DNA of 64,000 bases from Candidatus Moraniibacteriota bacterium. GTDB taxonomy: Bacteria > Patescibacteriota > Minisyncoccia > Moranbacterales > GCA-2747515. The stretch is from the NCBI GenBank assembly GCA_016699795.1, contig CP065011.1, positions 155,131-219,130 of the forward strand. Direction: 5' to 3'. Positions 17,208 through 55,279 of this stretch are shown here, piece after piece (the first letter of the stretch is position 1; every line of letters starts with the position of its first letter). A program made the translations under genes and the position numbers. Under the pieces are notes generated by a model. That model did no database searches and was not told where the DNA came from. It saw only the letters and a list, made by a program, of their open reading frames with translations.

Positions 17208-20114
17208 CTACCGCTTAAGCGTTATTATAATTTTCTTGTCTTCAATTGAGAATTCTTTTTTGATATCATTTTCTGAAAGCAAGTTTGATTGGATATTATT
17301 TGCCAAAACTTCTTTTTGAATCATTTCTCCAAACTTATTGAAAATTTCTTCCATTCCATCATATCCGACTCGAATACGATTATCAACTTCATATCCCGCT
17401 TCTTTGCGCATTTCTTGAATAACTCTAATTATCTCGCGAGCATTGCCTTCCATTTTCAACTCCTCAGTAATTTCAATATTTAGTTCAACCTTATTTTCTG
17501 GTCCACTTTTAATAACAACATTTTTGACATTAACCTCTTCTTTCATAATTTCTATAAAATCTTCCTGCATTTCATAGTTCGTAATTATCAATTCGGAAAG
17601 TGGTTGTCGGACCTTGATTCCATTTTTTGCACGCAATTGCAAAGCCTCCGTAATGATTTTTCTGGTATTATCCATTTTTTCATTTAACTCCGCGTCAATC
17701 AATTTTTCATCAGCCACAGGGAAGTCAACCAAATGTACAGATTCTTCATTTGCTAAGTTCTTATAAATTTCTTCTGCAATAAATGGAGTAAATGGTGACA
17801 TAACCTTTGATAATTCCACCAAAACATAGTGCAATGTTTGGTAAGCAGCTTCTTTATCACCATCATCCTCAGATTTCCAAAATCTCTTTCGGCTGCGGCG
17901 AATATACCAGTTAGATAATTCATCAATAAAATCCATGACTGGTTTCGTAGCATTTGGCAAATCATAAGCCAACATGTTTTCGTCAGCTGTTTTAATAAGT
18001 TTATGCAACTTTGATACAATCCATTTATCCAGCAAGCTTATTGTTTGAGGTCTCTCGCCTAAATTTTGAGGAGACCATTTATCTACATTGGCGTACATGA
18101 CGAAAAAACCATAACTGTTCCACAAGGTGCCCAATTTTCTTTGAATATCAGAAACATCCTTATCAATTAAGGCAAAATCGTCACCATTGAGCAGTGGTGA
18201 ACTTATCAAGAGGTATCTCAAGGCATCGGCACTATATTTCTCAAGCAAAACATTCGGATCCGTATAATTACCTAAAGATTTTGACATCTTTTTACCATCC
18301 GAACCCGCAATCGTACCAGTTACAATGACATTTTTAAAAGATTCCTTTCCAAAAAGACCCACTGATACGGCATGTAGGTAATAGAACCACGCACGAACTT
18401 GACCAACATATTCAGAAATAAAATCTCCCGGAAAATTTTCTTCAAACTTCTCCCTATTCTCAAACGGATAATGAAATTGAGCAAATGGCATTGACCCCGA
18501 TTCAAACCAGCAGTCCATAACTTTTTCAATTCTTCTCATCCCAATACCATCTATTTCAAAAGTTATTTTGTCGACATAAGGCAAATGGTAATCTCCAAGT
18601 TCTACGCCCGAAAGTTCCTTTAATTCTGCATAACTACCCACGACTTTTGTTACTACTGTTCCGTCAGATTGTGTTCCGCGCCAAACCGGAATAGGCGTAG
18701 CCCAAAATCGATCACGACTTAAGTTCCAATCGGGAGCAGTTTCCACAGTATTCCTAAACCGCTTTTCCTTAAAATGATCCGGGAACCAGTTGATATTCTC
18801 ATTTTCTTCCAACATCTCTTTTCTTTGCCCGTCAATATCCATAAACCAGCTTGGATGAGCTCGGTACATCAACTTCGTACCACACCTATGGCAATGTGGG
18901 TATTCATGCTGGACATAGTCAATTTTTAATACAACATCATCCACCAAAAAAGTTTTGGCTATTTCTTTATTTACTTCCCAAACATTTTTATCCTTCCATC
19001 TTCCATCGACATAGATTCCGTTTTCATCAACCGTATTTACGACTGGCAGTTTCTCTTTTTTAGCAACCACATAGTCATCTTCTCCGAAAGCCGGAGCGAT
19101 ATGCACAATACCTGTTCCATCTTCTGTTGTCACAAAATCCGCACCAATGATTCTGTGCGCTTTATCCCCATGATTTTTAAAAAGAGGCTTATACTTTTTA
19201 TTGACTAATTCCGCACCACTAATTTCTCCGACTATCTTCGGTGGAGTAGGCGGAACATCCAAGGAATTCAATTCTTTAACGGCAACAAATAAAACTTCCT
19301 TCTTATTTTCATAAGTTTCTTTTGCTAAAATAAAAATTTCTTCCTCCCCTTTTTTGTTATTATATCTAACTTTTACATAGTCAATTTTTTCACCTATTGC
19401 TAAGGCTACATTGGCCGATAATGTCCAAGGTGTCGTTGTCCAGGCTAATAAATATGTATTTTCTTCGCCTTCAAGTTGAAATTTCACATAAACCGATGGA
19501 TCAGTTACCACCTTATAGCTATTATCCATAGCTACTTCAGCTTTTGAAATCGGAGTCGCACACCGCGTGCAATACATTAGAACCTTTTCACCTTCATATA
19601 TTTTTCCTTTTTCATACAATTGCTTAAATGCCCACCAAACACTTTCCATGTATTCTTTATCCATGGTCTTGTATGCATTTTTAAATTCTACCCAGCGGCC
19701 GATTCTCTCAATTGTATCTTCCCAAACACTACCACCTTGAACCATTTCTCTATGACAAGTTTGAATATATTTTTCTAATCCAATTTTTGGAATGTCACGT
19801 TTATCTTTAATGCCTAGTTTTTTTTCTACCAAATTTTCCGCAGGTAGACCATGACAATCCCAACCCCAACGCCTTTCTACTCGCTTACCTTTCATAGTCC
19901 AGTACCGTGGCACTACATCTTTCACGATCGAAGAAAGTAATGTCCCATAATGAGGAATTCCTGTTATGAAAGGAGGTCCGTCATAGAAAACATACGCATC
20001 TTTTTTATCTCTCATCTCCACAGACTTTTTAAAAGTATCATTTTCCTTCCAAAACTTAATCATCTCCTGTTCCATTTCTGAATATTTTTTTCTTAATTCT
20101 ACCTTTTTAAACAT
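17208..20114 (-). CDS. ileS: isoleucyl-tRNA synthetase, eukaryote-like type 2
   Basis: 968 aa; YDGPPFITGIPHYGTLL (type-2 HYGH-class HIGH region); GWDCHGLP; KMSKS (KKMSKSLGN); CP1 editing domain present. Confidence 0.9.
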   Translation of the reverse strand: MFKKVELRKKYSEMEQEMIKFWKENDTFKKSVEMRDKKDAYVFYDGPPFITGIPHYGTLLSSIVKDVVPRYWTMKGKRVERRWGWDCHGLPAENLVEKKLGIKDKRDIPKIGLEKYIQTCHREMVQGGSVWEDTIERIGRWVEFKNAYKTMDKEYMESVWWAFKQLYEKGKIYEGEKVLMYCTRCATPISKAEVAMDNSYKVVTDPSVYVKFQLEGEENTYLLAWTTTPWTLSANVALAIGEKIDYVKVRYNNKKGEEEIFILAKETYENKKEVLFVAVKELNSLDVPPTPPKIVGEISGAELVNKKYKPLFKNHGDKAHRIIGADFVTTEDGTGIVHIAPAFGEDDYVVAKKEKLPVVNTVDENGIYVDGRWKDKNVWEVNKEIAKTFLVDDVVLKIDYVQHEYPHCHRCGTKLMYRAHPSWFMDIDGQRKEMLEENENINWFPDHFKEKRFRNTVETAPDWNLSRDRFWATPIPVWRGTQSDGTVVTKVVGSYAELKELSGVELGDYHLPYVDKITFEIDGIGMRRIEKVMDCWFESGSMPFAQFHYPFENREKFEENFPGDFISEYVGQVRAWFYYLHAVSVGLFGKESFKNVIVTGTIAGSDGKKMSKSLGNYTDPNVLLEKYSADALRYLLISSPLLNGDDFALIDKDVSDIQRKLGTLWNSYGFFVMYANVDKWSPQNLGERPQTISLLDKWIVSKLHKLIKTADENMLAYDLPNATKPVMDFIDELSNWYIRRSRKRFWKSEDDGDKEAAYQTLHYVLVELSKVMSPFTPFIAEEIYKNLANEESVHLVDFPVADEKLIDAELNEKMDNTRKIITEALQLRAKNGIKVRQPLSELIITNYEMQEDFIEIMKEEVNVKNVVIKSGPENKVELNIEITEELKMEGNAREIIRVIQEMRKEAGYEVDNRIRVGYDGMEEIFNKFGEMIQKEVLANNIQSNLLSENDIKKEFSIEDKKIIITLKR

Positions 20115-20379
20115 AAAATTATCATTTTATAATATTTAACTAACATAAAAATAAAAATCCCTACACAAATAATGTATAAGGACGATTGAAAATCGTGGTA
20201 CCACCTTAATTCCCCCAATATTTATATGGAGCTTGATTATGGCTATTACGGGCCACCCGGTGGATTCTACTTGCCTAATAGGCTTTCTTTTCACAGCATT
20301 GGGATTGATAGTCCCTCAAGCGCTTTATATATATAATACTTCTTTTTAAATATTAGGCAAATTACCAATCTTCTTAACT

Positions 20380-20815
20380 ATTTTATCAAGACTCTCAAAT
20401 AATGATTTCCTTTGACGGATCTACCGTTAAATCTGGATGTTTTGGAATTTCGTAATGCATATCCTTACCAATTTTTTCACTTCGTATATAAATCCAAAAG
20501 AGATTAATCAGTTTTGTAATCATATCCCGTATTGATTAAAAAGGTGCTATAACAGGAACGACCCTATTAAAACCTTGGCTATTAAGAACTTTTGTCAATC
20601 GCGCAACTCGCATATTGTGTTCCTTTCTATCTTCATTGCTAAATCCTAGATCTATTTAAATTGATACACGCGATTCATCTCCATCAAGAACTACAGCACT
20701 TAGTCGATCCTTTAGCAAATATGCGAGCAAGGTCTTACCTGAATTAACATTCCCAGTTTACTATATAATTCTTTTTTTGCTGTCTCATATCTTGGTTACT
20801 GAGATTTCTTCAATT
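20380..20815 (-). pseudogene. cysC: adenylylsulfate (APS) kinase pseudogene
   Basis: Minus-strand frame: AGGAGG-6nt-ATG MEKQIEEISVTKI*DSKKRII**TGNVNSGKTLLAYLLKDRLSAVVLDGDESRVSI*IDLGFSNEDRKEHNMRVARLTKVLN, then a frameshift and ..SQGFNRVVPVIAPF*. This matches CysC (..TGLSGSGKSTLA..[34 protein letters not shown]..FISP) but carries in-frame TGA, TAG and TAA codons plus at least one frameshift. Confidence 0.6.
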
Positions 20816-21137
20816 TGCTTTTCCATTCTAATCCTCCTGATTCCCCAGCCAGCATCACGACTATAAAAAACTTCTTTATATCAGGAATAGCTACTAAACA
20901 TTTTCATCACCCTCATACTCCTTTCTAATCCTCGCCATTCATTCTTCAACCAGATAAAGATAGATAAAATCTTAGAGTATCTCTAGCAGCGATGACGACG
21001 CTGCCACATTCATTTAGAACAACATTAATGGGAGCATTATGACCTCTGTGAAACGGTTGCTAACGACCTATACATAATGATTTACTCATGCATTTATGAA
21101 TACGCTGAATTCATCCTTAATTAATTTAACGGTTTTA

Positions 21138-21905
21138 TCAGTACTTTAAAATCTGATTTATCTTATTCGCTTTAGTTTTTGAGTTTATTTCATCCAAGAA
21201 AAGAGTAAATGATTCTCTTCGTGGAAGTAACCCTATCTCTCCCCTTTCTATTCCACGAGAATGACCAGGCAAATCAATATCACCTGTCACATTTTTAAAA
21301 TCAGCGTAATTCAGGAAAAGATCGCTATAATTGATTCCAATGTGACCACAAATTTTTTTCATTTCTTGAATGGGATTATTACAGAAATTTTCATACTTAA
21401 ATATCATCACTTCCTTTCCTACTAAGCTTGTTGTTAGCTCATATAAAAAATCAAGATTTTTATCATAAAATGTTCTTGGAGAAGCATTAAGAGAAAGCCA
21501 AACATCAATAGCGTTTCTAACAAAAGCAATCGGTATAACCGGAAAAAATTTGAATAGCGCATCAAGCGTAGCCAATGATTTAGATGGTTTAAAATTATTA
21601 TATCGGGATGGTACGAAACTTCCGAATGTCCAATCGCGAACTACTAGAGTTAAATTTTTAGAAATACAATATTCATATATTTCAGTTATGTTTTCAATAA
21701 ATCCTTCCGACTTCAATTCCAAACCGTACCATTCTTTAGATTGCTCTTTAATCGTGCTACAAGAACTAGGGCACAAAGCTTCAATACTTACCTCAGATAA
21801 AACAAAAGTATTGGGAATACTAGCAATGCATCTATTAAGCAAAGTCCCTCCGGACCGTGCATAAGCCATCATCACCACAATCGGTTTAGAATATTTATTT
21901 ATCAT
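21138..21905 (-). CDS. PAPS-dependent sulfotransferase family protein
   Basis: 255 aa; 5'-PSB-like motif ARSGGTLL near the N-terminus and 3'-PB-like RNAIDVWLS (RxxxDxxxS). Confidence 0.6.
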   Translation of the reverse strand: MINKYSKPIVVMMAYARSGGTLLNRCIASIPNTFVLSEVSIEALCPSSCSTIKEQSKEWYGLELKSEGFIENITEIYEYCISKNLTLVVRDWTFGSFVPSRYNNFKPSKSLATLDALFKFFPVIPIAFVRNAIDVWLSLNASPRTFYDKNLDFLYELTTSLVGKEVMIFKYENFCNNPIQEMKKICGHIGINYSDLFLNYADFKNVTGDIDLPGHSRGIERGEIGLLPRRESFTLFLDEINSKTKANKINQILKY

Positions 21906-21916
21906 CGTTTCTTTCG

Positions 21917-22876
21917 TTAGTTTTTAACTAAAGCTTCATCATATTTCTTTGATATAATTTCAACTTGTTTCTTCAAGTCTGTTATCGTTCCCTTCGCGGG
22001 AGATAATGAATAGGATGGCGTGAAAATATAATTATTATTATTGCCACCAACCCAGTATCTTCCATCCAGTAATATTTGTTCAGAAGTATTTGTCAAATTA
22101 TTTTTAAAAGTTTCGTCTACGGGAGCAATCCTAAAAAAGAAATCTTTATCCAAATCATAAATAATCCCATATCTATTTTTTATTTTTGTCTCATCATAAG
22201 CAATTTTATTTAATTTAATCCAATCGGCTAATATTTTTTTGATTAATTCAACACTAACATGAGGAGAATCATCAAGCCTCAATTCTTCTATTAGCTTTAA
22301 ATTTATCTTATTTTTATAGCAAAAATCAAATAAGCTAGGTAATGACGATATATTTATTTCAGTTACCGGAGTATTGAACTCTATTCTGCCCCCCCTTGAT
22401 TTGATGAATAATGCTGAATCCAAAGTATTTTTTAGACCATCTTTATCAAATCTCGCTCTTGTCGTTTTTTCATATATGTCCTTATCTAAAGATGGCAAAT
22501 GTATATGAACATCAGATAATCCATTTTTCAATAAATCATCAGCTAACTCAAGAGTCATTCTGGAACCATTAGTAGTCATCCCAACATCTTTCACATACTG
22601 ATTCAATATGCTAAATATTTCCACCAGGTCTTTTCTTAACGTTGGTTCACCACCCGTTATCTGGATGTGAAGATTTTTCTCATTAATAATATTTTTTAGT
22701 TCACTAACAAATTCCCGGACTTGCTCTAATGGAATAAATCCATATCCTCGCGTATACTTTCCATCTACGAATGGTCCGCAATATATACAATTTTGATTAC
22801 ATGCTCCCGTTACCGATAATCTTATTTCATAAAATGGCATAGAAACATGAAAATCTTTTGTATTCTCTAATAGCAT
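21917..22876 (-). CDS. radical SAM protein, MoaA/viperin-like class, lacking the MoaA C-terminal auxiliary-cluster cysteines
   Basis: 319 aa; IRLSVTGACNQNCIYCGP (CxxxCxxC); ITGGEPTLRKDL; MTTNGS. MoaA-like TIM-barrel region present; no C-terminal CxxC...C motif. Confidence 0.8.
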   Translation of the reverse strand: MLLENTKDFHVSMPFYEIRLSVTGACNQNCIYCGPFVDGKYTRGYGFIPLEQVREFVSELKNIINEKNLHIQITGGEPTLRKDLVEIFSILNQYVKDVGMTTNGSRMTLELADDLLKNGLSDVHIHLPSLDKDIYEKTTRARFDKDGLKNTLDSALFIKSRGGRIEFNTPVTEINISSLPSLFDFCYKNKINLKLIEELRLDDSPHVSVELIKKILADWIKLNKIAYDETKIKNRYGIIYDLDKDFFFRIAPVDETFKNNLTNTSEQILLDGRYWVGGNNNNYIFTPSYSLSPAKGTITDLKKQVEIISKKYDEALVKN

Positions 22877-22882
22877 AAATAT

Positions 22883-23653
22883 TTATATTTTTTCCCAAGT
22901 TATTACATCTCCGACTCGAATGTTAAGTTCTCTTGCACTATCCGTGCATCTGACTTTTCCTAGTTCAGGTAACCCCATGGAACTTCCGGGATAAAGTACC
23001 CAAGTTCCGGTATCATGATCCATCATTCGCGCTGAAGTTATGACCTCAATAGATTCATTTCCATTTACAAATATCCTCACTTTTGTTCCTTCTGGATAAT
23101 CAGGGAATTGATCTTTTATTTTCATTAACCCAAAATTATCAATATGAACGACGACACCTTTTTTAACAGAAAAGTCGCACAATTCGTCTTTACTTAGTTC
23201 CTTTCCATATTCTTCAAATGAAATCCTTGATGCTATTTTGGCAACCATTGGAGAATGAACATACTTGCCTCCGAACGGATAAAATTTACTTTCTTTTATT
23301 TCATATAGAGATTTTATACCAAAATCATCAAATAACCAATTCAATGTTCCAGTATCCGCACCTTCAAAATATATACCATTCGCAAGTTCGCCAAAAATTC
23401 TTTTTGGTCTCTGTTGGGATGGGTTAAGAATTAACATAAAAATAACGTCCTCCTTATAATGTTCTGCCATCAGTCGTGTAAGAAATGCTCCATTCGTTAT
23501 GGAAAATTCCTCGGCGGGAATAAGAGGCTCAATCTCTGTATAGCTATTGCCCAACTTTTCACACTCAGATAATATTTGTCTTCTAATTTCACAAAATGCA
23601 ACATCTTTGCAATCTGTAATGACTACAACATGTTTAACTGGTTTTTTCTTGTT
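22883..23653 (-). CDS. DUF62 / SAM hydroxide adenosyltransferase-fluorinase-chlorinase family protein (paralog 2)
   Basis: Likely start is the GTG at 23653 (VNKKKPVKHVVVITDCKDVAF aligns with the paralog-1 N-terminus MNKKNVVIITDCKDVAF); the tracked ORF starts 54 nt upstream. HIDNFGLMK motif present. 6-nt gap to the radical SAM gene. Confidence 0.7.
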   Translation of the reverse strand, partial: NKKKPVKHVVVITDCKDVAFCEIRRQILSECEKLGNSYTEIEPLIPAEEFSITNGAFLTRLMAEHYKEDVIFMLILNPSQQRPKRIFGELANGIYFEGADTGTLNWLFDDFGIKSLYEIKESKFYPFGGKYVHSPMVAKIASRISFEEYGKELSKDELCDFSVKKGVVVHIDNFGLMKIKDQFPDYPEGTKVRIFVNGNESIEVITSARMMDHDTGTWVLYPGSSMGLPELGKVRCTDSARELNIRVGDVITWEKI

Positions 23654-23726
23654 CACACTTAATGTTAAAATTAGGTAATTAAAGCACGCTAAGAATATTA
23701 GTATCACGCAATCTGGCTATTATATA

Positions 23727-35263: not shown

Positions 35264-35316
35264 AAGTCTTTTCTCTCTATAAAAACAAAAAACTCCCCTT
35301 TCTTCTATCATTTTTG

Positions 35317-35389
35317 AGCCACCTGTCGGACTCGGACCGACGACCCACGGTTTACAAAACCGTTGCTCTACCAACTGAGCTAAGGTGGC
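35317..35389 (-). tRNA. tRNA-Thr (anticodon UGU)
   Basis: Minus strand: GCCACCT TA GCTC AGTTGGT AGAGC A ACGGT TTTGTAA ACCGT GGGTC GTCGG TCCGAGT CCGAC AGGTGGC T. Confidence 0.8.
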
Positions 35390-51717: not shown

Positions 51718-51769
51718 GTCTTTATTATCATCGAAAAACTAATGAAAAGCAATTCTTATTTCAGAATTT

Positions 51770-52339
51770 TTAACCTTCACCGAAAATTTTCAAACGTAAA
51801 GATTCTTTTCCTTTTCCTGTTTTGGCACTCATCCAAAGAATGGAATCTTCAACGCCTTTCTCTCTAAATTTCTTTAATGCCTTATATTTCTCTTTTTGAG
51901 TAAGTTTGTCTGATTTATTCGCAATAATAACAAAAGGAGTTTTTCTTTCAAGAAAAGCTTGTAAAATTTCTTCGTCAAAAGATTTAAGTCCTACCTGAGC
52001 ATCTACAATCAAAACAACGAGTTCCAATTCCACACCCGATTCAAAGAGAAACCACAAAAGATGTTTTCTTAATTTCTCTCTTGATTTTTCTGAAATTCTA
52101 GCATAACCATAACCAGGAAGATCTACAAAATATCGTTTTTTTCCTAATGAAAAGAAATTTATTTCTCGAGTTTTTCCAGGTTCAGAACTAGATCTCGCTA
52201 TTTTTTTCCCCACGAGGAGATTAATAAGACTTGACTTTCCAACATTAGAACGCCCAACAAAAACAATCTTCTTTTTTTCATCAGTTACGATGGGATCGGT
52301 ACCAATAATTCCTTTAATAAATTCAACGTCTATTATCAT
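51770..52339 (-). CDS. engB: ribosome biogenesis GTP-binding protein YihA/YsxC
   Basis: Start reassigned to MIIDVEFIKG; G1 GRSNVGKSS, G3 DLPGYG, G4 NKSD. Confidence 0.8.
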   Translation of the reverse strand: MIIDVEFIKGIIGTDPIVTDEKKKIVFVGRSNVGKSSLINLLVGKKIARSSSEPGKTREINFFSLGKKRYFVDLPGYGYARISEKSREKLRKHLLWFLFESGVELELVVLIVDAQVGLKSFDEEILQAFLERKTPFVIIANKSDKLTQKEKYKALKKFREKGVEDSILWMSAKTGKGKESLRLKIFGEG

Positions 52340-54887: not shown

Positions 54888-55279
54888 CGAAACAACGGAT
54901 CAAAACAGGTATATAAGCCGGATTCTGTCGAGGACGACCATTTCTCTAGACGTATCGTTACCGATACGCTCTTCTCCGATTAAGGAGAAAGCGACTCTTC
55001 TCTCAATAAAGAGAGACACGGTCTTGCATTCGGGTAAGGATTTAACCGTTTCACTTCTATAGTTTCCTATAGAACTCATCCTATTCGAAAATAGGATGTT
55101 TTCTTTTTCGCAAAAGAAAACGTCTCTGTTCGCACCTCGCGCTTCACAGCGTGCGGGAGTTACCCGCTACCCAGTTCCTTTAAAAAAATAAAGGGAATGT
55201 CCGGACTTTCCTCTTTCTCTCTTTATAAAATAAAAAGAAAAAGCGATCGTCATACCTGTTCTGATTCGTTGTTACGCTT
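54888..55279 (-). ncRNA. rnpB: RNase P RNA (bacterial type A-like) with extended P1
   Basis: Minus strand contains GAGGAAAGTCCGGAC (P4 5' strand) and ACAGAATCCGGCTTA (P4 3' strand). Long P1 pairs AACAACGAATCAGAACAGGTAT with ATACCTGTTTTGATCCGTTGTT. The region is GC-richer than its flanks. Confidence 0.75.

What the first reader, a model, noticed from the sequence alone, without database searches (positions are those of the whole stretch)
20115..21137. ~1-kb noncoding gap is a decayed PAPS-supply locus: an APS kinase pseudogene with TGA, TAG and TAA in frame, and possibly a second remnant
Seen in sequence:
- A minus-strand frame beginning with AGGAGG-6-ATG reads through the CysC P-loop (NSGKTLLA), LDGD, DLGFS..DR and the ISP region.
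- It is interrupted by all three stop codon types and at least one frameshift. This is therefore decay, not stop-codon recoding.
- Between the sulfotransferase stop and this pseudogene, a frame containing QPFHRGHNAPINVV...VVIAARDT faintly resembles an HxxH nucleotidyltransferase (ATP-sulfurylase-like?) remnant. This second assignment is speculative.

Implication: it shows recent loss of sulfate activation next to an intact sulfotransferase.
Basis: seen in the sequence. Interest (0 to 1): 0.5.

Follow-up and report, generated by a model that had tools for sequence, protein, structure and literature searches.

The report
Dead fused sulfate-activation gene plus T-box leader
The 1-kb gap holds one decayed gene, a fusion of a small nucleotidyltransferase and an APS-kinase-like domain that is intact at the same spot in related bacteria, followed by a working-looking tRNA-sensing leader for the isoleucyl-tRNA synthetase gene; this is an ordinary gene loss, although the neighbouring sulfotransferase genes have stayed intact.

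Summary
The interpretation needs three corrections.

1. The "CysC pseudogene" and the "HxxH remnant" are one gene. Window 21089→20346 (minus strand, 744 bp) is the remnant of a 249-aa fusion. Its N-terminal ~105 aa are an HxGH nucleotidyltransferase resembling archaeal NMNAT. Its C-terminal part is an APS-kinase-like domain. The closest intact relatives are 82-83% identical over all 249 residues.
2. The AGGAGG-6-ATG is internal coding sequence (GIRRIRMEKQ), not a ribosome-binding site and start codon.
3. The last ~215 bp of the gap (20140-20360) is not decay. It is a conserved T-box leader, terminator and promoter-like site for ileS.

The gene carries 7 nonsense codons of all three types and 4 small indels. 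Its own lineage has 49 substitutions, against 13 in its closest intact relative. An independent Logan assembly is 100% identical over 642 bp, which covers six of the stops and three of the indels.

Orthologous loci keep the order SAM_HAT–rSAM–sulfotransferase–fusion–T-box–ileS with the fusion intact. In the window the three upstream genes remain open and constrained.

Sulfotransferases are the commonest neighbours of this fusion across phyla. That supports a PAPS-supply role, which is inferred and not shown. Overall this is an ordinary pseudogene of modest interest.

The parts
20346..21089 (-). Unitary pseudogene of a 249-aa fused gene: an HxGH nucleotidyltransferase domain followed by an APS-kinase-like domain. 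The ancestral ATG is at 21089-21087 and the ancestral TAA at 20348-20346.
   Evidence: tblastn of intact homologue P0001 covers residues 1-249 in 4 pieces across three frames, E=2e-88. Nucleotide alignment with four intact orthologues. Homologues are single fused ORFs.
20775..21089 (-). Remnant of the N-terminal nucleotidyltransferase domain (codons 1 to ~105). FHRGH (the HxGH motif) lies at 21050-21039. The ISxTKIR motif is truncated by TGA at ~20787.
   Evidence: PF01467 scores 35-38 bits in intact orthologues. The PDB profile search matches archaeal NMNAT 1f9a at E=4e-9. Alignment.
20346..20774 (-). Remnant of the C-terminal APS-kinase-like domain. P-loop GNVNSGKT at 20754-20731, LDGD at 20688-20677, DLGFS at 20652-20638.
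   Evidence: PF01583 E=3.7e-18 on the stop-masked frame. TIGR00455 scores 69 bits. PDB APS kinase 8a8h matches the family profile at E=6e-23.
20538..21062 (-). Span holding seven nonsense codons. By orthologue codon and approximate window position: W10 TAG (21061), R51 TGA (20941), R104 TGA (20787), W112 TAG (20762), L113 TAA (20759), S147 TAA (20657), R/Q187 TAA (20538).
   Evidence: Substitutions polarised against L008, L006 and L002. Translation.
20406..20968 (-). Span holding four indels relative to intact orthologues: -2 bp (~20967), -4 bp (just after 20897), -1 bp (~20878), +1 bp (~20409). The reading frame runs 1→2→1→0→1.
   Evidence: MAFFT alignment with L008, L006, L002 and L004. Frame changes of the tblastn pieces.
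20824..20838 (-). It is internal coding sequence for ...GIRRIRMEKQ... of the fusion.
   Evidence: Aligned to codons 84-93 of all orthologues, where the sequence is AGGATG or AGAAGA.
20140..20335 (-). T-box leader of ileS. It has an ultrashort Stem I (GGGA-CUAUCAA-UCCC, with the Ile codon AUC followed by A in the loop), Stem II, IIA/B and Stem III, the T-box sequence AAUUAAGGUGGUACCACG, and a terminator.
   Evidence: Rfam RF00230 at E=5e-8, 44.5 bits, below the gathering score of 93. Conserved in L008, L006 and L002. Consensus fold has 6 compensatory pairs out of 43.
20147..20183 (-). Intrinsic-terminator-like hairpin (11 pairs) plus a U-run. Its 5' arm (CCUU...) is also the 3' strand of the antiterminator helix.
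   Evidence: Terminator scan found 1 site against 0.4 expected. The hairpin is conserved in all 4 leaders.
20333..20360 (-). Promoter-like TTGCCT-16-TATTAT (TATAAT in L008). Its -35 hexamer overlaps the last codons of the pseudogene.
   Evidence: Consensus scan. The count of such sites is not above shuffles, so this is only a lead. The element is conserved in L008 and L006.
17208..20114 (-). ileS (968 aa, with DUF5915 at the C-terminus), the gene controlled by the leader.
   Evidence: Pfam tRNA-synt_1 E=1.6e-124, plus Anticodon_1 and DUF5915. NCBI names it isoleucine--tRNA ligase, QQS61470.1.
21138..21905 (-). Intact sulfotransferase-like gene (255 aa) immediately upstream of the pseudogene.
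   Evidence: Sulfotransfer_3 E=1.1e-5, 26.3 bits, just under the gathering score of 27. The motifs ARSGGTLL and RNAIDVWLS are conserved in orthologues. dN/dS is 0.06 against L006.
21917..23656 (-). Intact upstream genes of the same cassette: a MoaA-like radical SAM gene (21917-22876) and a SAM_HAT_N/DUF62-like gene (22883 to ~23656, GTG start).
   Evidence: The same order is found in L002-L006.

Best explanation
The gap holds two things.

1. Window 21089-20346 (minus strand) is a unitary pseudogene of a single fused gene. The N-terminal ~105 aa are a minimal HxGH adenylyl/cytidylyltransferase domain closest to archaeal NMNAT. The C-terminal ~145 aa are an APS-kinase-like P-loop kinase without the canonical lid. 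The gene is dead: 7 nonsense codons, 4 frameshifting indels, and roughly four times more substitutions than its closest intact relative, biased towards GC→AT. In related Patescibacteria the intact gene sits in the same cassette, SAM_HAT–rSAM–sulfotransferase–fusion.

Inferred: the intact gene supplied activated sulfate to the sulfotransferase. The N-domain would adenylylate sulfate to make APS, and the kinase would phosphorylate the 3'-OH to make PAPS.

The upstream genes have stayed open and constrained since the loss. The cassette therefore probably still works, using PAPS or APS from another source. Candidate sources are a gene elsewhere in the 1.19-Mb genome, or the host or community. This step is also inferred.

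2. Window 20360-20140 is the functional-looking regulatory region of ileS. It has a promoter-like site and an Ile-specific T-box riboswitch whose expression platform looks like a transcription terminator.
For: Shown:
- Full-length homology to intact fused proteins, 82% identity over 100% of the query.
- The lesion catalogue.
- Lineage substitutions 49 against 13. Identity to L008 is 89.9% inside the gene, against 97.7% in the sulfotransferase 3' end and 96.2% in the leader.
- 100% identity of an independent Logan contig (SRR11674012) over 642 bp, including six stops and three indels.
- Syntenic intact orthologues in L002-L006, and in L008.
- Intact copies are under purifying selection, dN/dS 0.08.
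- Neighbouring genes have no lesions. Unique amino-acid changes, window versus L006: sulfotransferase 27 vs 24, rSAM 24 vs 26. dN/dS is 0.06-0.09.
- At the pseudogene's lesion density, about 37 disabling lesions would be expected in those 2.5 kb if they were unconstrained. None is seen.
- No second copy exists in the window.

Support for the PAPS role:
- APS-kinase motifs and PDB matches.
- Foldseek's top hits are bifunctional ATP sulfurylase-APS kinase enzymes (2gks, 1m8p), aligned across both domains at E~1e-8.
- Among 145 flanking genes of the fusion in 41 loci from many phyla, the commonest Pfam family is Sulfotransfer_3 (13), followed within the sulfotransferases by Sulfotransfer_1 (7). 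No ATP-sulfurylase family is in the top 25.
- Other contexts include TauE and sulfotransferases.

T-box.
Against: - No enzyme activity is known for this fusion, and I found no paper on it.
- By sequence the N-domain matches NMNAT, not ATP sulfurylase.
- Intact orthologues score below every NCBIfam adenylyl-sulfate kinase cut-off, 96 bits against 138.7.
- The structural model is only moderate (pLDDT 72.7), and the ISATKIR region is below 50.
- The +1 indel at ~20409 and the last ~170 bp of the pseudogene are not covered by the second assembly.
- The rest of the genome could not be searched for another sulfate-activation gene.
- The Rfam T-box score is below gathering, and covariation rests on only 4 sequences.
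Confidence: 0.9

Rival explanations
1. The gene is intact, and the stops and frameshifts are sequencing or assembly errors in a long-read MAG.
For: The window comes from a MAG with a 1.19-Mb contig. Such assemblies can carry indel errors. The -1 and +1 indels lie in short A or G runs.
Against: - Seven of the lesions are base substitutions that create stops.
- They sit within 49 lineage-specific substitutions, 37 of them non-synonymous. Indel-type errors do not produce that pattern.
- An independent k-mer assembly (Logan, SRR11674012) is 100% identical over 642 bp, covering six stops and three indels.
- The flanking genes have no lesions.
Confidence: 0.02
2. Two separate decayed genes: a cysC with its own RBS and ATG at 20838-20824, and a separate sat-like remnant upstream.
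For: AGGAGG-6-ATG is a textbook start context. Kinase-only homologues exist, for example P0025 at 148 aa. In SAR11 loci the two halves appear as adjacent ORFs.
Against: - Thirty-seven of the 39 homologues found are 243-267-aa fusions of PF01467 and PF01583.
- The five syntenic orthologues are single ORFs with no stop between the domains.
- The AGGAGG-ATG stretch aligns to conserved internal codons (GIRRIRM) and is not AGGAGG in the orthologues.
Confidence: 0.03
3. The parent fusion was not a sulfate-activating enzyme. It could have been, for example, an NMNAT-plus-kinase enzyme of NAD or nucleotide salvage in the manner of NadR. In that case the loss says nothing about PAPS supply.
For: - The best sequence matches of the N-domain are archaeal NMNAT and NadM.
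- There is no sequence match to ATP sulfurylase.
- The kinase lacks the canonical lid and falls below the CysC equivalog cut-offs.
- P-loop kinases change substrate readily (general knowledge).
Against: - The kinase keeps the LDGD, DLGFS and DR..HN..R signatures and matches only APS kinases in the PDB, E=6e-23.
- Sulfotransferases are the top neighbour family across phyla.
- Foldseek aligns the two-domain arrangement with bifunctional Sat-CysC enzymes.
Confidence: 0.17
4. The interruptions are bypassed by stop-codon reassignment or programmed frameshifting, so a protein is still made.
For: Some Patescibacteria relatives (Gracilibacteria, Absconditabacteria) reassign UGA (general knowledge).
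Against: - All three stop codons occur, at positions that are W, R, L, S and R/Q in orthologues.
- Four indels of different sizes lack any common slippery context.
- Every other gene examined in the window reads cleanly with table 11.
- Invariant family residues are substituted. For example G118, which is at least 90% conserved, is N here.
Confidence: 0.01

Closest known systems
Bifunctional ATP sulfurylase-APS kinase (Sat-CysC), e.g. Aquifex aeolicus 2gks; also the fungal ATP sulfurylase with a C-terminal APS-kinase-like domain (1m8p, 1i2d)
   Same: The domain order is the same: an N-terminal adenylyltransferase of the HxxH/HxGH α/β-phosphodiesterase superfamily, then a C-terminal APS-kinase fold. 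These are the top Foldseek hits, aligned over both domains. The kinase motifs are shared.
   Different: The N-domain here is ~105 aa and NMNAT-like by sequence, against ~380 aa of PUA-like plus ATP-sulfurylase catalytic domains. The N-domain has no sequence match to ATP sulfurylase. The kinase lacks ~30 lid residues. No activity has been tested, and the window copy is dead.
Stand-alone adenylyl-sulfate kinase CysC (TIGR00455 / PF01583), e.g. Methanothermococcus thermolithotrophicus 8a8h
   Same: Walker A motif, LDGD, DLGFS..DR and the IxP strand are shared. 8a8h is the best PDB match, E=6e-23. Pfam gathering is passed.
   Different: The protein is fused to a nucleotidyltransferase and has a shortened lid. 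It falls below the NCBIfam equivalog cut-off even when intact, 96 bits against 138.7.
Archaeal NMN adenylyltransferase (MJ0541, 1f9a) and NMNAT fusions (NadM, NadR)
   Same: GRxQPFHxGH and ISxTxIR motifs are shared. It is the best sequence match for the N-domain, E=4e-9. NadR also combines an NMNAT domain with a P-loop kinase.
   Different: Only ~105 aa against ~170 aa, and far below the NMNAT cut-offs (34 bits against 181). The partner domain is APS-kinase-like, not a ribosylnicotinamide kinase. The genomic context is sulfotransferases, not NAD genes.
Actinobacterial ileS T-box riboswitches with an ultrashort Stem I (Mycobacterium, Nocardia; Sherwood et al. 2015, as reviewed in PMC7583486)
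   Same: Both regulate ileS. Both have an AUC specifier in the terminal loop of a very short Stem I without the distal tRNA-elbow platform. Stem II, IIA/B, Stem III and the UGGN bulge are present in both.
   Different: Those riboswitches act on translation by sequestering the Shine-Dalgarno sequence. Here the platform is a hairpin plus U-run about 35 nt before the start codon, which looks like a transcription terminator. The host is a Patescibacterium, not an actinobacterium.

Membership tests
APS kinase domain (Pfam PF01583) | Profile match above the Pfam gathering score | tested here: met
   The stop-masked remnant scores 66.4 bits against a cut-off of 21.1. Intact orthologues score 81-90 bits.
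APS kinase domain (Pfam PF01583) | Walker A P-loop, LDGD, and the DLGFS..DR..N..R substrate motifs | tested here: met
   GNVNSGKT, LDGDE.R and DLGFSNEDRKEHNMR are visible in the remnant and conserved in the family.
CysC equivalog (NCBIfam TIGR00455 and PRK subfamilies) | Whole-protein score above the curated cut-off, which requires the full-length kinase including the lid | tested here: not met
   The remnant scores 69.4 bits and intact orthologues 85-96 bits, against a cut-off of 138.7. Only profile positions ~12-115 of 184 are matched.
CysC equivalog (NCBIfam TIGR00455 and PRK subfamilies) | APS 3'-phosphorylation activity | not testable with these tools
   Needs an enzyme assay of an intact orthologue.
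HxGH nucleotidyltransferase superfamily (PF01467, TIGR00125) | HxGH motif and profile match | tested here: met
   FHRGH at 21050-21039. PF01467 scores 31-38 bits against a cut-off of 21, and TIGR00125 scores 31 against 27.7, in orthologues.
HxGH nucleotidyltransferase superfamily (PF01467, TIGR00125) | Second signature, ISxTxxR | tested here: met
   ISATKIR is (near-)invariant in the family. In the window it reads ISVTKI*, with the Arg codon mutated to TGA.
ATP sulfurylase (Sat) | Sequence or fold relationship of the N-domain to the Sat catalytic domain | tested here: inconclusive
   The profile search against PDB matched Sat-containing chains only through their kinase part. Foldseek aligned both domains to 2gks and 1m8p at E~1e-8, but with rmsd 18-20 Å and a moderate model.
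ATP sulfurylase (Sat) | Sulfate adenylylation activity | not testable with these tools
   Inferred only from the kinase partner and the sulfotransferase neighbourhood.
Unitary pseudogene | Full-length homology to an intact gene, plus several independent disabling lesions | tested here: met
   Residues 1-249 are covered. There are 7 nonsense codons and 4 indels.
Unitary pseudogene | Intact orthologue at the syntenic position in relatives, and no second copy nearby | tested here: met
   L002-L006 and L008 carry intact copies. No other copy exists in the 64-kb window. The rest of the genome was not searchable.
Unitary pseudogene | Relaxed constraint, seen as an accelerated rate not concentrated at third codon positions | tested here: met
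   49 substitutions against 13. By codon position they fall 14/27/8. Five are synonymous, 37 non-synonymous and 7 nonsense.
Unitary pseudogene | Lesions are not assembly artefacts | tested here: met
   The Logan contig L001 is identical over window 21160-20519. The 3' 170 bp, including the +1 indel, are not covered.
T-box leader (Rfam RF00230) | Covariance-model score above gathering | tested here: not met
   44.5 bits against 93, although E=5e-8. The shortfall comes from the 76-nt Stem I segment of the model being replaced by 7 nt.
T-box leader (Rfam RF00230) | T-box sequence with a UGGN bulge, a specifier codon matching the regulated aaRS, and mutually exclusive terminator and antiterminator helices | tested here: met
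   AAUUAAGGUGGUACCACG is present. AUC followed by A lies in the Stem I loop upstream of ileS. The terminator's 5' arm overlaps the antiterminator's 3' arm (and inspection).
T-box leader (Rfam RF00230) | Long Stem I with a distal tRNA-elbow platform, typical of transcriptional T-boxes | tested here: not met
   Stem I is a 4-6 bp hairpin with a 7-nt loop in all four orthologous leaders.

The most novel reading that the evidence does not exclude
The parent gene belongs to a widespread, uncharacterised 'mini PAPS synthase' family, with at least 558 loci across Patescibacteria, Omnitrophota, Planctomycetota, Acidobacteriota, SAR11 and archaea. In it a ~105-aa NMNAT-like adenylyltransferase does the job of ATP sulfurylase. 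This Moraniibacteriota genome lost the gene yet kept its PAPS-type sulfotransferase cassette under selection. That would mean the episymbiont now takes activated sulfate (APS or PAPS) from its host or community.
Probability: 0.15. Interest if true: 0.6.

Novelty: new member of a known kind. Interest (0 to 1): 0.3.

Why it matters
The finding itself is an ordinary single-gene loss in a reduced genome, and it corrects an over-split reading of the gap. It has value in three modest ways.

1. It points to a fused nucleotidyltransferase-APS-kinase family that is widespread. NCBIfam has no specific model for it, and I found no paper on it. It is strongly linked to sulfotransferases. If its small N-domain really adenylylates sulfate, it would be the smallest known sulfate-activating enzyme.

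2. The sulfotransferase, radical-SAM and SAM_HAT genes have stayed intact long after their presumed PAPS supplier died. That gives a testable hint of metabolite dependence in a candidate-phyla-radiation bacterium.

3. The same gap contains an ileS T-box with an ultrashort Stem I and a terminator-type platform. Reviews describe that combination as atypical, and Rfam-threshold annotation misses it.

Tried and rejected
- Stop-codon recoding or programmed frameshifting: rejected. All three stops occur at unrelated ancestral residues, and there are four different indels.
- Assembly error: rejected for 642 bp by an identical independent contig.
- Second copy in the window: none.
- Canonical cysC, sat or a sulfate transporter within ±10 kb: none among the 19 ORFs scanned.
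- More orthologous loci through a metagenome scan with the sulfotransferase: only one distant hit (49% identity), not followed.
- Exact look-up of the window's IleRS, to find an independent contig covering the pseudogene's 3' end: nothing on record.
- Rfam at gathering threshold on orthologous loci: no T-box reported. The element is seen only at E-value threshold.
- Literature on the fusion: two full-text searches found nothing relevant. Sherwood et al. 2015 is not held.
- Possible selection signal in the decay: there is an excess of codon-position-2 changes (27 against 18.2 expected, P=0.006), nonsense changes (7 against 3.3, P=0.04) and a deficit of synonymous changes (5 against 10.4, P=0.03) relative to a spectrum-matched simulation. 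These are post-hoc, uncorrected tests on small counts. I treat the pattern as compatible with neutral, AT-biased decay.
- The apparent gap at 51718-52322 is an artefact of my greedy ORF picker. It holds a clean GTPase-like ORF.
Full report
**What is in the sequence**

- AGGAGG-6-ATG at 20838-20824.
- A frame reading through GNVNSGKT, LDGD, DLGFS..DR and IAPF.
- In-frame TGA, TAG and TAA.
- A change of frame before the C-terminal helix.
- Upstream, QPFHRGH...VVIAARDT.

With the stops masked, the kinase frame matches Pfam APS_kinase at E=3.7e-18 (66 bits). It matches NCBIfam apsK at 69 bits, which is below that model's equivalog cut-off.

**One gene, not two**

I searched the protein database with the conceptual kinase product. 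It returned 39 homologues, 37 of which are 243-267-aa proteins carrying PF01467 (HxGH cytidylyl/adenylyltransferase-like) followed by PF01583. The best is 82% identical over the whole query.

tblastn of the best hit (P0001, 249 aa) against the window covers residues 1-249 in four pieces, from 21089 to 20349, in three frames, at E=2e-88. There is no other copy in the 64 kb.

The AGGAGG-ATG encodes the conserved internal GIRRIRM, and orthologues read AGGATG or AGAAGA there.

The family alignment (32 sequences, 73% mean column identity) shows:
- Invariant HxGH, ISATKIR and Walker A motifs, plus LDGDE, DLGFS and DR..H.
- A kinase roughly 30 residues shorter than canonical CysC in the lid region.

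**Lesions**

I aligned the window with four intact orthologous genes at nucleotide level and polarised the changes.
- Seven nonsense codons: W10 TAG, R51 TGA, R104 TGA, W112 TAG, L113 TAA, S147 TAA, R/Q187 TAA.
- Four indels: -2, -4, -1 and +1.
- 49 substitutions on the window lineage against 13 on the lineage of its closest relative, L008.
- On the window lineage, 5 are synonymous, 37 non-synonymous and 7 nonsense.
- GC→AT changes outnumber AT→GC changes 31 to 13.

Identity to L008 is 97.7% in the sulfotransferase 3' end, 89.9% in the pseudogene and 96.2% in the ileS leader.

A spectrum-matched simulation shows a marginal excess of second-position and nonsense changes (P=0.006 and P=0.04). 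These are post-hoc tests, and I do not build on them.

The own-lineage divergence (~7%) is of the same order as the per-lineage synonymous divergence from L008. The gene has therefore been drifting for about as long as the two lineages have been apart. It is "recent" only in the sense that it is still fully recognisable.

**Not an artefact**

The window's proteins are NCBI QQS61468-QQS61472, from a Candidatus Moraniibacteriota MAG with a 1,186,598-bp contig. IleRS and the sulfotransferase have consecutive accession numbers, so no protein was called between them.

A Logan assembly of run SRR11674012 contains a 3,252-bp contig that is 100% identical to window 21160-20519. That span includes six stops and three indels. 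The last ~170 bp, with the +1 indel, have no second witness.

**Orthologous loci**

Contigs from several metagenomes carry the following order, with the fusion intact at 249-250 aa (L002-L006):
- SAM_HAT_N
- radical SAM
- sulfotransferase
- fusion
- a ~250-bp gap
- IleRS (968 aa)
- an unknown protein (553-560 aa, opposite strand)
- AsnB
- Gmk

Intact copies are under purifying selection (dN/dS 0.08).

In the window the three upstream genes are open. Their numbers of unique amino-acid changes are similar to those in L006 (sulfotransferase 27 vs 24, rSAM 24 vs 26, SAM_HAT 33 vs 20). Their dN/dS is 0.06-0.09. At the pseudogene's lesion density, about 37 disabling lesions would be expected in those 2.5 kb if they were unconstrained. 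None is present. The loss is therefore confined to one gene, and the cassette appears to be still in use.

**What the parent gene did (inferred)**

The C-domain matches only APS kinases among solved structures (8a8h, E=6e-23). The N-domain matches archaeal NMNAT (1f9a, E=4e-9) and, by sequence, no ATP sulfurylase. No NCBIfam model claims the fusion, and all CysC and NMNAT equivalog cut-offs are missed.

An AlphaFold model (pLDDT 72.7) has bifunctional ATP sulfurylase-APS kinase enzymes (2gks, 1m8p) as its top Foldseek hits, aligned across both domains at E~1e-8.

A scan of GTDB species representatives found at least 558 loci encoding relatives. They occur in Patescibacteria, Omnitrophota, Planctomycetota, Acidobacteriota, Alphaproteobacteria including SAR11, and archaea.

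I scanned the two genes on each side of the fusion in 41 loci, 145 proteins in all, against Pfam. The commonest family was Sulfotransfer_3 (13 proteins), and Sulfotransfer_1 matched 7. No ATP-sulfurylase family was in the top 25, and PAPS_reduct occurred twice. Individual contexts add TauE and further sulfotransferases.

The window's sulfotransferase keeps ARSGGTLL and R-x8-S (RNAIDVWLS). From general knowledge of sulfotransferases, I recognise these as the 5'-PSB and 3'-PB PAPS-binding motifs.

Together this supports a PAPS-supply role. It does not prove that the small N-domain is the sulfurylase. An NMNAT-like or other nucleotide function remains possible (about 0.17).

**The rest of the gap**

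Rfam at E-value threshold reports a T-box leader at 20175-20329, E=5e-8. Its 44.5 bits fall below the gathering score of 93 because the model's 76-nt Stem I core is replaced by 7 nt.

The leader is conserved in L008, L006 and L002. The consensus fold has 43 pairs, 6 of them with compensatory changes. It shows:
- A 4-6-bp Stem I with the invariant loop CUAUCAA (Ile codon AUC followed by A).
- Stem II, IIA and Stem III.
- The T-box sequence.
- A hairpin plus U-run at 20183-20147.

The hairpin's 5' arm is the 3' arm of the antiterminator. The ATG at 20114 lies about 35 nt past the U-run, and no Shine-Dalgarno sequence lies inside the helix. The platform therefore looks transcriptional.

Reviews associate ultrashort Stem I with translational, mostly actinobacterial, T-boxes, and long Stem I with transcriptional ones (PMC7583486, PMC7778990).

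A promoter-like TTGCCT-16-TATTAT at 20360-20333 overlaps the pseudogene's last codons. It is a consensus match only.

**Verdict**

The locus is a unitary pseudogene of a fused nucleotidyltransferase/APS-kinase-like gene, followed by a functional-looking ileS T-box leader. The gene loss is ordinary. Three side observations are leads rather than results:
- an uncharacterised family that may be a minimal PAPS synthase;
- retention of the sulfotransferase cassette after the loss;
- an atypical T-box.

Noticed in passing
window 20140-20335 (-), with L008:924-1115, L006:3915-4105, L002:8790-8975: The ileS T-box combines an ultrashort Stem I (AUC in a 7-nt terminal loop) with a terminator-type expression platform. 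Reviews link short Stem I to translational, actinobacterial T-boxes. It scores below Rfam gathering, so routine annotation would miss it.
   Followed up: partly
window 21138-23707 (-); L002:5465-8753; L006:622-3901; L091:137-7530: A conserved cassette of SAM_HAT_N (DUF62-like), a MoaA-like radical SAM gene, a sulfotransferase and the fusion lies next to ileS. SAM_HAT, IleRS, the fusion and a Sulfotransfer_3 gene are linked again, in a different order, in a more distant lineage. The product is unknown and the recurring link to ileS is unexplained.
   Followed up: partly
loci L007, L009-L088: The nucleotidyltransferase-APS-kinase-like fusion is widespread, with at least 558 loci among GTDB species representatives. 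It occurs in Patescibacteria, Omnitrophota, Planctomycetota, Acidobacteriota, SAR11 and archaea. NCBIfam has no specific model for it and I found no paper on it. In SAR11 (L088) the two halves appear as adjacent 135-aa ORFs.
   Followed up: partly
window 20346-21089 (-): Substitutions on the pseudogene lineage are enriched at codon position 2 (27 against 18 expected) and in nonsense changes (7 against 3.3) relative to a spectrum-matched simulation. Synonymous changes are few (5 against 10.4). The effect is marginal, post hoc and unexplained.
   Followed up: partly
window 31759-32169 (+): A 136-aa ORF carries only the N-terminal SAM-like domain of a phage-type integrase, with no catalytic domain. 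It may be a truncated integrase remnant.
   Followed up: no
window 30055-30825: A 771-bp stretch has no ORF of at least 70 aa, no tRNA and no Rfam hit at gathering threshold. Six-frame translation showed nothing obvious by eye, and it was not searched against databases.
   Followed up: no
window 22883-23707 (-): The mechanical ORF of the SAM_HAT gene starts 17 codons upstream of the orthologues' Met. At the orthologous start position the window has GTG (Val in the ORF translation), which is probably the real start.
   Followed up: partly
window 54898-55262 (-) and 34471-35389 (-): Bacterial RNase P RNA class A (126.8 bits) and a cluster of four tRNA genes (Trp, Thr, Tyr, Thr). These are ordinary features.
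   Followed up: no
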